Of a DNA stretch of 64,000 nucleotides, positions 58,882-59,262 are shown one piece after another. The DNA lies in IMG/VR virus record IMGVR_UViG_3300037234_000438, positions 15,212-79,211 of that record. One strand, 5' to 3'. The stretch is from a virus. A program made the translations under genes and the position numbers. The notes beneath the pieces are model-generated. The model was given only the letters and a program-made list of their open reading frames with translations. It was not told the DNA's origin and searched no databases. Position 1 is the stretch's first letter. Each line of letters starts with the position of its first letter.

Positions 58882-59262
58882 ATGATAGACCCACAAGAAT
58901 TAGCTGAATATTGCAAGGAACACGGTCTTACCGAAGAGGATGGCATCGCCGTCCTTAGCGTTGCTGATACTCTTGAGGGTAAGGATGATGACACTGTATA
59001 CACCAAAAACATCGACATTGGTGGTTGGGACATGAGCAAGGGCGTGGTTAAAAGAGTCCCCCACCATGAGTCCATATTAGGAATCCTAGAAGTCTCCTTT
59101 GTGGTTAAGTCTGACGACGATACGCATCAATATATGAGGGCTCAATGTTGCATTGATCACACAGATGTCATCTTGGAAGTTGACCTACCAGAACAGACTG
59201 CCCATAAATTCAGCGATCCGCTTCGCAATAGAGGATGGGTAACGATAACGTATCGAAAATAA
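58882..59262 (+). CDS. tag A fused to a paralogue of the tail-fibre C-terminal domain
   Basis: TKNIDIGGWDM...NRGWVTITY vs fibre TKVIDIGDWNM...NRGWITITY. Confidence 0.8.
   Translation: MIDPQELAEYCKEHGLTEEDGIAVLSVADTLEGKDDDTVYTKNIDIGGWDMSKGVVKRVPHHESILGILEVSFVVKSDDDTHQYMRAQCCIDHTDVILEVDLPEQTAHKFSDPLRNRGWVTITYRK

What the first reader, a model, noticed from the sequence alone, without database searches (positions are those of the whole stretch)
58882..59262. Stand-alone paralogue of the tail-fibre tip domain fused to tag A
SEEN: 59002-59253 aligns with the fibre C-terminus (16411->16115): TKNIDIGGWDM/TKVIDIGDWNM (8/11), VPH..ILEVSFVVKSD..THQY/VTH..ILTVSVMIRTD..TNQY, and NRGWVTITY/NRGWITITY (8/9). 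The fibre shaft is replaced by an acidic N-terminal module of about 35 aa carrying tag A. INFERENCE: it could be a soluble decoy of the fibre tip, a receptor-blocking exclusion factor, or a donor of alternative tip sequence.
Basis: partly seen in the sequence, partly recalled or inferred. Interest (0 to 1): 0.8.

Follow-up and report, generated by a model that had tools for sequence, protein, structure and literature searches.

The report
Stand-alone tail-fibre knob in early genes
A marine-sediment phage carries, among its early accessory genes, a small protein made of a very diverged copy of the end domain (knob) of its own tail fibre joined to a short acidic helical tag, which probably acts inside the infected cell rather than on the virus particle.

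Summary
ORF 58882..59262 (+, 126 aa, own ribosome-binding site) has residues 37-124 homologous to the last ~105 residues of the fibre gene 16106..17179 (-): BLASTP 34% identity, E 5e-12. A family profile built without it scores 48.7 bits.

The knob belongs to a large unannotated family (2,676 clusters at 50% identity), always C-terminal, seen only in environmental phages and metagenome-assembled genomes. It has no Pfam, PHROG, NCBIfam or PDB match.

The small copy is whole but fast-evolving:
- 28-34% identity to any member, against 45-55% among fibre knobs
- end branch 2.4 against a median of 0.5
- 9 of 23 conserved positions changed

It is still predicted to form a homotrimer (score 0.71, best control 0.01). 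It has no signal peptide. It shares no nucleotide similarity with the fibre gene. It lies in the replication/accessory strand block, next to other genes carrying tag A, a helical hairpin found only in this phage. One unrelated 84-kb phage of 58 checked has a similar diverged knob gene among its early genes.

Verdict: a real co-opted fibre knob. The tip-sequence donor reading is rejected. The receptor-blocker reading is unsupported but not excluded. The most likely role is an intracellular trimeric scaffold or binding module. I rate it a new variant of a known kind, of moderate interest.

The parts
58882..59262 (+). Gene for the 126-aa protein (P0001): tag-A hairpin plus stand-alone fibre-knob domain
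   Evidence: ORF with its first ATG after a stop; stop of the upstream gene 1 nt before the ATG. Homology to the fibre knob.
58870..58875 (+). Shine-Dalgarno-like GAGGGA, 6 nt before the ATG
   Evidence: Read directly from the sequence.
58882..58989 (+). Tag A: acidic helical module (residues 1-36, net charge -9), ending ...VADTLEG
   Evidence: HMM of the module finds five ORFs in the record. Charge. Helix 4-13 is modelled at low confidence here. In the neighbouring protein the same module is a confident helical hairpin.
58990..59259 (+). Knob domain (residues 37-126): seven strands plus one helix, with motifs IDIGGWDM ... NRGWVTITY
   Evidence: Alignment with 46 family members. AlphaFold2 pLDDT about 90 over the domain. 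Homotrimer model scores 0.71 against a best control of 0.01.
16106..17179 (-). 357-aa tail fibre, directly downstream of the central tail fibre J homologue (17192..20566)
   Evidence: Its position in the tail module. 167 relatives share its C-terminal domain.
16106..16435 (-). Fibre C-terminal knob (residues 249-357), the canonical form of the domain
   Evidence: Profile search finds 2,676 cluster representatives, always C-terminal. It is 45-58% identical to knobs of unrelated phages.
58464..58880 (+). Upstream neighbour (138 aa): two tandem tag-A hairpins plus a Cys-rich zinc-ribbon-like tail
   Evidence: HMM hit 1.8e-20 plus a weak second copy. Model shows a four-helix domain, residues 9-77, pLDDT about 90. 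Weak zinc-ribbon Pfam hits.
57239..57547 (+). Tag-A protein (102 aa), with the module internal
   Evidence: HMM hit 2e-20.
60743..61147 (+). Tag-A protein (134 aa) with a Cys-rich C-terminal part
   Evidence: HMM hit 8.8e-22.
63250..63549 (+). Tag-A protein with a Cys-rich tail. The homology starts upstream of the first canonical start codon (TTG at 63304).
   Evidence: Found independently by the HMM built from the other four copies, E 6.6e-5. ORF listing.

Best explanation
P0001 is a co-opted fibre knob: a complete but fast-evolving member of a widespread phage fibre C-terminal knob family. It has left the virion module and now sits in the early/accessory gene block. There it is made as a soluble cytoplasmic protein that forms a knob-like homotrimer.

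In place of the fibre shaft, each subunit carries one acidic tag-A helical hairpin, a module this phage has spread over at least five small accessory genes. The most likely working model is that the knob serves as a trimerising and/or binding scaffold. It would present three tag-A hairpins (or its own altered surface) to an intracellular partner during infection, as one member of the phage's family of modular tag-A proteins. On this model it does not dock on the outer receptor and does not ride on the virion.

Shown:
- homology to the knob family
- completeness of the domain
- divergence
- absence of export signals
- genomic position
- absence of DNA similarity to the fibre gene
- recurrence in one unrelated phage

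Predicted only: the fold and the trimer.

Inferred: early expression (from strand and neighbours), intracellular action, and the scaffold role. The partner is unknown.
For: Sequence and family:
- Homology and completeness of the domain.
- Large family, always C-terminal, on proteins of 103-1,046 aa.
- 14 of 23 positions conserved at 80% or more are kept, including the IG.W.M, H61, D78 and NRGW..I.Y positions.

Structure:
- The monomer model is confident (pLDDT about 90 over the knob).
- The homotrimer model scores 0.71, median of three runs, against a best control of 0.01. The runs agree in their contacts and partner pLDDT is at least 83. In the calibration, 20 of 30 solved pairs reached this mark against 1 of 23 single chains. 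The tool's caveat applies: my own alignment and three copies differ from that calibration.

Position:
- The gene sits on the + strand block with recT-like, primase/helicase and many small genes, opposite to and about 42 kb from the tail operon.
- It is tightly coupled to an upstream tag-A gene.
- The N-terminus has no hydrophobic stretch and a net charge of -9.

Tag A:
- It is a confident helical hairpin in the neighbouring protein.
- It recurs in five ORFs.

Comparison with other phages:
- In another, unrelated, AT-rich 84-kb phage, a 109-aa diverged knob gene without a signal peptide lies next to SbcC/SbcD-like early genes, 16 kb from that phage's fibre.
- Short knob proteins in other phages that keep the canonical sequence lie inside structural modules. 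So position and divergence go together.
Against: - No expression or localisation data exist. The phage is known only from a marine-sediment metagenome.
- The partner of the knob or of tag A is unknown.
- Tag A has no relatives outside this genome, so its function cannot be borrowed from elsewhere.
- The trimer is a prediction only.
- The loss of conserved charged residues could mean decay rather than a new function.
- A cytoplasmic protein is released at lysis and could still act outside the cell.
- Only two genomes show the arrangement.
Confidence: 0.4

Rival explanations
1. Receptor-directed soluble knob. P0001 trimers would bind the same surface structure as the fibre knob. That could happen after release at lysis, coating debris or neighbouring cells. 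It could also happen inside the cell on receptor precursors. The effect would be to limit re-adsorption or superinfection.
For: - Same fold family as the fibre knob, and a predicted trimer.
- Stand-alone knobs with signal peptides or hydrophobic N-termini exist in other phages. One lies next to glycosyltransferase genes, so the isolated domain can work at the envelope.
- Free tail-fibre protein in lysates is known to change the susceptibility of neighbouring cells (PMC11373596).
- Weak structural resemblance to lectin-like fibre feet (6cxb Z 4.8, 4mtm Z 4.4).
Against: - P0001 has no signal peptide, lipobox or membrane segment.
- It has lost 9 of 23 conserved positions, among them D48, R100 and D106, which lie outside the predicted trimer interface.
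- It is only 34% identical to the resident fibre knob, while knobs of unrelated phages are about 50% identical to that knob.
- It is not known whether the canonical knob is the receptor-binding site at all. Its conservation across phages binned with different phyla argues against a host-specific site.
Confidence: 0.2
2. Virion or assembly role. P0001 would be a mini-fibre or alternative tip that joins the particle through tag A. Alternatively it would co-assemble with or cap the fibre knob during fibre maturation.
For: - Short proteins (115-170 aa) made of a brief N-terminal piece plus this knob are common and lie in structural modules of other phages.
- The predicted trimer interface is slightly better conserved with the resident fibre than the rest of the domain (12/29 against 19/61 identical).
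Against: - The gene is on the opposite strand, 42 kb from the tail genes, among replication and accessory genes.
- Tag A is shared with zinc-ribbon-type small proteins that are unlikely virion parts.
- Its N-terminus is unlike the N-termini of the short virion-module forms.
- The difference in interface conservation is small.
Confidence: 0.12
3. Mimic of a virion part. P0001 would copy the surface of the fibre knob in order to titrate a host immune sensor, or another factor, that recognises that structural protein. It would be part of an array of early 'virion-fragment' proteins.
For: - In a comparison of all early-strand ORFs with all late proteins, only two matches stand out. One is this knob (E 1.9e-10). 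The other is a 59-aa ORF at 56680..56859, with its own GGAGG site, that shares 13 of 17 residues with the portal although the DNA is only 31/51 identical (E 8e-6).
- A second phage also keeps a diverged knob among its early genes.
Against: - No defence system that senses a fibre knob is known to me (own knowledge).
- A mimic should keep the sensed surface, yet P0001 is the most diverged member seen.
- There are no hits in the PADLOC library or any annotated family.
- Two fragments do not make a system.
Confidence: 0.12
4. Decaying remnant: a displaced knob copy that drifts without function.
For: - Very long branch (2.4 against a median of 0.5).
- Loss of conserved residues.
- Known from a single phage lineage only.
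Against: - The frame is intact, with a ribosome-binding site and tight coupling to the neighbouring gene.
- After about 66% sequence change, the fold-defining positions and the C-terminal NRGW.TITY strand are still kept.
- The fold and trimer predictions are confident.
- A parallel case exists in an unrelated phage.
Confidence: 0.1
5. Donor of alternative tip sequence, by homologous recombination, an invertible segment, or a diversity-generating retroelement template.
For: Same domain family in the same genome. A reverse transcriptase is reported elsewhere in the record by an earlier, unchecked note.
Against: - No nucleotide match longer than 9 nt between the two knob genes.
- No repeat of either gene anywhere in the 79,211-bp record.
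- The protein has its own start codon, ribosome-binding site and N-terminal module.
Confidence: 0.02

Closest known systems
The unnamed 'IGDWNM ... NRGWITITY' C-terminal knob family of environmental phage fibres (no Pfam, PHROG or NCBIfam model, no solved structure)
   Same: P0001 matches the family profile over the whole domain. It ends at the same C-terminal strand, keeps 14 of 23 conserved positions, and is predicted to trimerise.
   Different: - It is not attached to a shaft and not in a virion module.
- Its branch is about five times longer than typical members.
- It has lost D48, G62, R69, R100, G104, D106 and other conserved residues.
- It carries a phage-specific acidic hairpin at the N-terminus.
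Lectin-fold 'foot' of R-type pyocin fibres (PDB 6cxb, 6cl5) and the C-terminal domain of Acinetobacter phage AP22 fibre gp53 (4mtm)
   Same: Small beta-sandwich at the extreme C-terminus of a trimeric fibre. These are among the best structural matches to the model.
   Different: The matches are weak (Z 4.8 and 4.4; Foldseek E > 0.1) and there is no sequence similarity. A shared fold is not established.
Phage receptor-masking proteins such as T5 Llp and phi80/N15 Cor (own knowledge; T5 structural study PMC9586334 listed, not read)
   Same: Early or lysogenic phage products proposed to protect the infected cell or the progeny by blocking the phage's own receptor.
   Different: Those are exported lipoproteins unrelated in sequence to the receptor-binding protein. 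P0001 has no export signal and is itself a homologue of the fibre knob.
Free tail-fibre protein in lysates (Klebsiella phage gp46, PMC11373596)
   Same: A fibre protein that is not on a virion acts on cells after release at lysis.
   Different: That protein is the surplus virion fibre itself, a capsule depolymerase encoded by the late gene. It is not a separate diverged paralogue from the early region.
Small C-terminal trimerisation units of phage fibres, such as the T4 fibritin foldon (own knowledge)
   Same: A compact C-terminal domain that can drive trimer formation of whatever is fused in front of it. This is the role proposed here for the knob towards tag A.
   Different: The fold and size differ, and there is no homology. 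The scaffold role of the P0001 knob is inferred, not shown.

Membership tests
IGDWNM...NRGWITITY fibre C-terminal knob family (unnamed) | Significant match to a family profile built without the candidate | tested here: met
   48.7 bits, E 3.6e-17 (single comparison), HMM positions 28-135. phmmer against member P0142 gives 4.9e-13.
IGDWNM...NRGWITITY fibre C-terminal knob family (unnamed) | Domain sits at the extreme C-terminus, ending 1-3 residues after the ...I.Y strand | tested here: met
   P0001 ends ...NRGWVTITYRK. All 150 listed members are C-terminal.
IGDWNM...NRGWITITY fibre C-terminal knob family (unnamed) | Conserved positions (23 columns conserved at 80% or more in 233 members) | tested here: inconclusive
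   14 of 23 are kept. D48G, G62H, R69L, R76K, R100V, G104E, F105 gap, D106T and T113P are changed. What these residues do is unknown.
IGDWNM...NRGWITITY fibre C-terminal knob family (unnamed) | Carried on a fibre shaft or encoded in a virion module | tested here: not met
   The gene lies in the + strand accessory block, 42 kb from the tail genes. Canonical short forms in other phages lie in structural modules.
IGDWNM...NRGWITITY fibre C-terminal knob family (unnamed) | Trimeric knob | tested here: met
   Prediction only: three copies of residues 37-126 score 0.71 against a best control of 0.01. The trimeric state of the family itself is assumed from fibre biology, not measured.
Receptor-masking or superinfection-exclusion proteins (Llp/Cor type) | Export signal or lipobox placing the protein at the envelope | tested here: not met
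   The N-terminus MIDPQELAEYCKEHG... is acidic, with no hydrophobic stretch.
Receptor-masking or superinfection-exclusion proteins (Llp/Cor type) | Binds the phage's own receptor and blocks adsorption | not testable with these tools
   Host and receptor are unknown; the source is a marine-sediment metagenome.
Tip-switching donors (diversity-generating retroelement template repeat, invertible fibre segments, recombination cassettes) | Nucleotide-level repeat shared with the 3' end of the fibre gene | tested here: not met
   No match longer than 9 nt between the two genes. blastn of each gene against the whole 79-kb record finds only itself.
Tail fibre assembly chaperones | Encoded next to the fibre gene, with a match to a chaperone family | tested here: not met
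   Not adjacent (42 kb away). No Pfam, PHROG or NCBIfam match of any kind.

The most novel reading that the evidence does not exclude
The early block of this phage would encode a set of small proteins that copy surfaces of its own virion proteins. So far there are two: a trimeric fibre knob and a 17-residue portal segment. They are joined to shared helical tags. They would act as molecular mimics that titrate host immune sensors, or assembly-interfering factors, that recognise structural proteins. The separate diverged knob gene in an unrelated 84-kb phage would then be a second instance of the same strategy.
Probability: 0.12. Interest if true: 0.9.

Novelty: new variant of a known kind. Interest (0 to 1): 0.55.

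Why it matters
There are two points.

First, the knob is a very large phage domain family: 2,676 clusters at 50% identity, 986 of them at E <= 1e-10. It has no model in Pfam, PHROGs or NCBIfam, no solved structure, and no member in cultured phages. It is conserved at about 50% identity across phages found with different bacterial phyla. Defining the family would improve annotation of fibres in environmental viromes.

Second, a structural knob that has moved into the early gene set, evolves about five times faster, and is joined to a phage-specific tag is an unusual case of a virion part being reused. It has happened in at least two unrelated phages. If it acts as a mimic, a blocker or a trimerising scaffold, it would be a new kind of phage accessory protein and a compact natural trimerisation unit.

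Tried and rejected
Family, structure and literature searches:
- Pfam, PHROGs, NCBIfam and PADLOC scans of P0001, the fibre and the neighbouring genes gave nothing for P0001 or the fibre.
- A PDB sequence search with the family profile gave no hit at E <= 10.
- Foldseek against PDB gave nothing at E <= 1e-3. VIA-align against 48,161 chains gave a best Z of 4.9, a generic beta-sandwich level.
- BFVD gave only marginal matches (best E 4e-4) to uncharacterised and collagen-like phage fibre proteins.
- The ESM Atlas gave only leads under 0.85.
- Two literature searches found no described stand-alone fibre-knob paralogue.

Relatives in sequence collections:
- megablast and tblastn against 50,697 phage records found no match for the region, for P0001 or for the fibre knob.
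- A word-indexed search with P0001 found only itself.
- A profile of five tag-A proteins found only this genome's own proteins.
Contexts were taken from the search for related loci and the genome search instead.
- The sequencing-run search listed only one DNA holder, the probable source, a marine sediment metagenome. No RNA holder was listed.

Side analyses:
- The 128-aa gene downstream of the fibre, tested as a possible conserved chaperone, had no phmmer hit in 79 loci. An earlier jackhmmer attempt returned nothing, probably because the program is absent.
- A tree of 77 knobs left P0001 unresolved. It joins the other long branch (G004 short form), which is a likely artefact. With that row removed it sits near P0144. 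A clade with its own fibre is not rejected (p-AU 0.69), so the origin by internal duplication stays open.
- The structural model of the tag-A domain gave no PDB match. The nearest were designed alpha/alpha repeat proteins at E 0.4.
- I considered a T4-type capsid-targeting or protease-site reading of the ...L(E/S)G end of tag A and dropped it. The module is internal in three of the five proteins, and the residues before it do not fit the T4 L/I-x-E rule (own knowledge).

Full report
**What is there**

The window is bases 15212-79211 of a 79,211-bp linear IMG/VR virus record, estimated 66% complete. The only public run that holds it is a marine sediment metagenome, probably its source.

The record is a siphovirus-type phage.
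- It continues through a 1,573-aa tape measure and a central tail fibre J homologue (17192..20566).
- It then reaches a 357-aa fibre (16106..17179) and further tail genes.
- The plus-strand block from about 37.8 kb to the window end holds recombination and replication genes and dozens of small genes of unknown function.

The ORF of the finding, 58882..59262, lies in that plus-strand block.
- It starts at the first ATG after a stop.
- It has GAGGGA 6 nt upstream.
- It begins 1 nt after the stop codon of the upstream gene.

**Check of the observation**

- BLASTP of the 126-aa product (P0001) against the fibre aligns residues 37-124 with fibre residues 253-355: 35/104 identical, E 5e-12.
- Against every ORF of the window, the C-terminal part hits only the fibre (2.9e-8).
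- A profile built from 27 family members without P0001 scores it at 48.7 bits, E 3.6e-17 for a single comparison.
- In a 47-sequence alignment the domain is complete. What looked like a 14-residue deletion is a shortened loop after the QY motif. The following strand IDHTDVILEV aligns with the family's ID.TN..L.R.

**The domain family**

The last ~105 residues of the fibre form a module that is very common.
- A word-indexed search with the fibre found 167 relatives. Nearly all match only that C-terminal part, which sits on proteins of 199-605 aa with unrelated N-terminal parts.
- An exhaustive profile search of 1.84 billion cluster representatives found 2,676 proteins at E <= 1e-3 and 986 at E <= 1e-10. 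The domain is always at the C-terminus, on proteins of 103 to 787 aa.
- It has no model in Pfam, PHROGs or NCBIfam, and no sequence relative in the PDB.
- It is absent from 50,697 deposited phage genomes by tblastn.
- In species-representative genomes it occurs only in metagenome-assembled genomes of several phyla: Spirochaetota, several Bacteroidota, Gammaproteobacteria, Desulfobacterales, Planctomycetota, and candidate-phyla bins.
- Fibre-borne knobs of unrelated phages are 45-58% identical to each other. That is unusually conserved for a supposed host-specific tip. It leaves open whether the domain is the receptor site, a general glycan binder or a trimerisation cap.

**How P0001 differs**

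- It is 28-34% identical to every member examined. The best match is a 135-aa protein, P0142, at 60 bits. The resident fibre gives 48 bits.
- In a maximum-likelihood tree its end branch is 2.4 substitutions per site against a median of 0.5. Its placement is unresolved, and a clade with its own fibre is not rejected (p-AU 0.69). Internal duplication is therefore possible but not shown.
- Of the 23 columns conserved at 80% or more in 233 members, it keeps 14: K42, I46, G47, W49, M51, H61, I68, D78, N116, R117, G118, W119, I122 and Y124.
- It has changed 9: D48G, G62H, R69L, R76K, R100V, G104E, one gap, D106T and T113P.

**Structure**

- AlphaFold2 with the family alignment gives a confident seven-strand, one-helix domain for residues 39-125 (pLDDT about 90). 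The N-terminal helix is modelled at low confidence.
- No solved structure matches clearly. Foldseek finds nothing at E <= 1e-3, and the best VIA-align Z is 4.9. The R-type pyocin fibre foot (6cxb, Z 4.8) and AP22 gp53 (4mtm, Z 4.4) are among many generic beta-sandwiches at that level.
- Predicted viral structures give marginal matches to uncharacterised and collagen-like phage fibre proteins.
- Three copies of residues 37-126 were modelled as a complex. The median score was 0.71 against a best control of 0.01. All runs agreed and partner pLDDT was at least 83. In the tool's calibration, 20 of 30 solved pairs and 1 of 23 single chains reached this mark. The tool notes that my own alignment and three copies differ from that calibration.
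- The interface uses residues 39-43, 65-76, 80-93 and 119-123.
- D48, R100 and D106, conserved in the family and lost in P0001, lie outside it. They may belong to a functional patch that P0001 no longer has. That is inference.

**Tag A**

- The first 36 residues have a net charge of -9. They match a module found in ORFs 57239, 58464, 60743 and 63250/63304. The last of these was detected independently at E 6.6e-5. A partial copy sits at the C-terminal end of 3403..3825.
- A model of the upstream neighbour (58464..58880) shows two such modules in tandem. They form a four-helix domain at pLDDT about 90, followed by a poorly modelled Cys-rich tail.
- The nearest solved structures are designed alpha/alpha repeat proteins, without significance.
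- Tag A is therefore a helical hairpin unit. A profile of the five proteins finds nothing outside this genome.
- At the DNA level the copies are not similar, so the shuffling is not recent.

**Comparison with other phages**

- In 79 viral loci carrying the knob there is one knob gene per locus within +/-8 kb.
- I searched 58 whole viral records. Only one has a second copy: G004, 83.8 kb and AT-rich. The copy is a 109-aa ORF (L095:5665..5994).
 - It has no signal peptide and no tag A.
 - It is 24-27% identical to any knob.
 - It sits beside SbcC/SbcD-like genes, 16 kb from that phage's fibre.
 - It too has lost D48 and D106.
- Short proteins of 115-170 aa with a canonical knob lie inside structural modules.
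- Other short forms carry signal peptides or hydrophobic N-termini. One (L003:4412..4834) follows a run of glycosyltransferase-like genes.
- The isolated domain is therefore used in several settings. The combination of non-structural position, no export signal and high divergence marks P0001 and the G004 protein as a distinct kind.

**Interpretation**

- The donor reading fails. No nucleotide match between the two genes exceeds 9 nt, and neither gene has a repeat in the record.
- The receptor-blocker or decoy reading lacks the expected export signal and the conserved charged residues. It cannot be excluded, because lysis releases cytoplasmic proteins and free fibre proteins are known to act on neighbouring cells (PMC11373596).
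- A virion role is unlikely from the gene's position and from the company tag A keeps.
- The reading I favour (0.4) is a co-opted knob that works inside the cell as a trimeric scaffold or binding module within the phage's family of tag-A proteins.
- A more novel variant (0.12) is that it mimics the fibre knob towards a host sensor. Some support comes from a systematic comparison of early ORFs with late proteins. That comparison singles out only this knob and a 59-aa ORF (56680..56859, with its own GGAGG site). This ORF shares 13 of 17 residues with the portal while the DNA is only 31/51 identical.

**Earlier notes of this scan**

I checked the first two and they hold. The array idea rests so far on two significant matches.

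**Verdict**

This is a real and unusual gene, not an artefact. It is a new variant of a known kind (fibre knob domain). The mechanism is open. Interest is moderate to fairly high.

Noticed in passing
The match is 13/17 residues, BLASTP E 8e-6 against the 31 late proteins, while the DNA is only 31/51 identical. It is the only other significant early-versus-late match.
   Followed up: partly
L095:5665-5994 (G004, IMGVR_UViG_3300009034_000013, 83.8 kb): An unrelated AT-rich phage has a 109-aa, very diverged, basic (pI 9.1) stand-alone knob gene. It lies among early genes next to SbcC/SbcD-like genes, 16 kb from its own 305-aa fibre.
   Followed up: partly
L003:4412-4834: A 140-aa protein with an N-terminal signal-peptide-like segment plus the knob domain (IDIGGWDMDG) follows a run of glycosyltransferase- and methyltransferase-like genes. 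It faces a terminase-like gene on a 9.8-kb viral contig. It may be an exported knob linked to surface-glycan modification.
   Followed up: no
window 16106-16435 (-) and loci L004-L115: The fibre knob is 45-58% identical between phages of very different base composition and in bins of different phyla, while the shafts are unrelated. That is unusual for a receptor-binding tip. It suggests a conserved ligand or an assembly role.
   Followed up: partly
window 58464-58880 (+): The upstream neighbour carries two tandem tag-A hairpins, modelled as a confident four-helix domain (residues 9-77). A Cys-rich tail follows that resembles the tails of ORFs 63304 and 60743.
   Followed up: partly
window 63250-63549 (+): Homology to tag A (GGLRCTPSELL...) begins 18 codons upstream of the first canonical start codon (TTG at 63304). 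The gene may use an unusual start, or may be truncated or frameshifted.
   Followed up: no
G062 contig C32, 3405-3737 and 8997-9308 (-): One contig binned as Candidatus Parcubacteria carries two canonical knob genes (382 aa and 146 aa open frames) about 5 kb apart. Two canonical copies in one module therefore also occur.
   Followed up: no
window 57573-58016 (+): A 147-aa early protein has a weak DnaJ-type CXXCXGXG zinc-finger match, below the Pfam cut-off (E 6e-4). The region is rich in small Cys-rich proteins.
   Followed up: no
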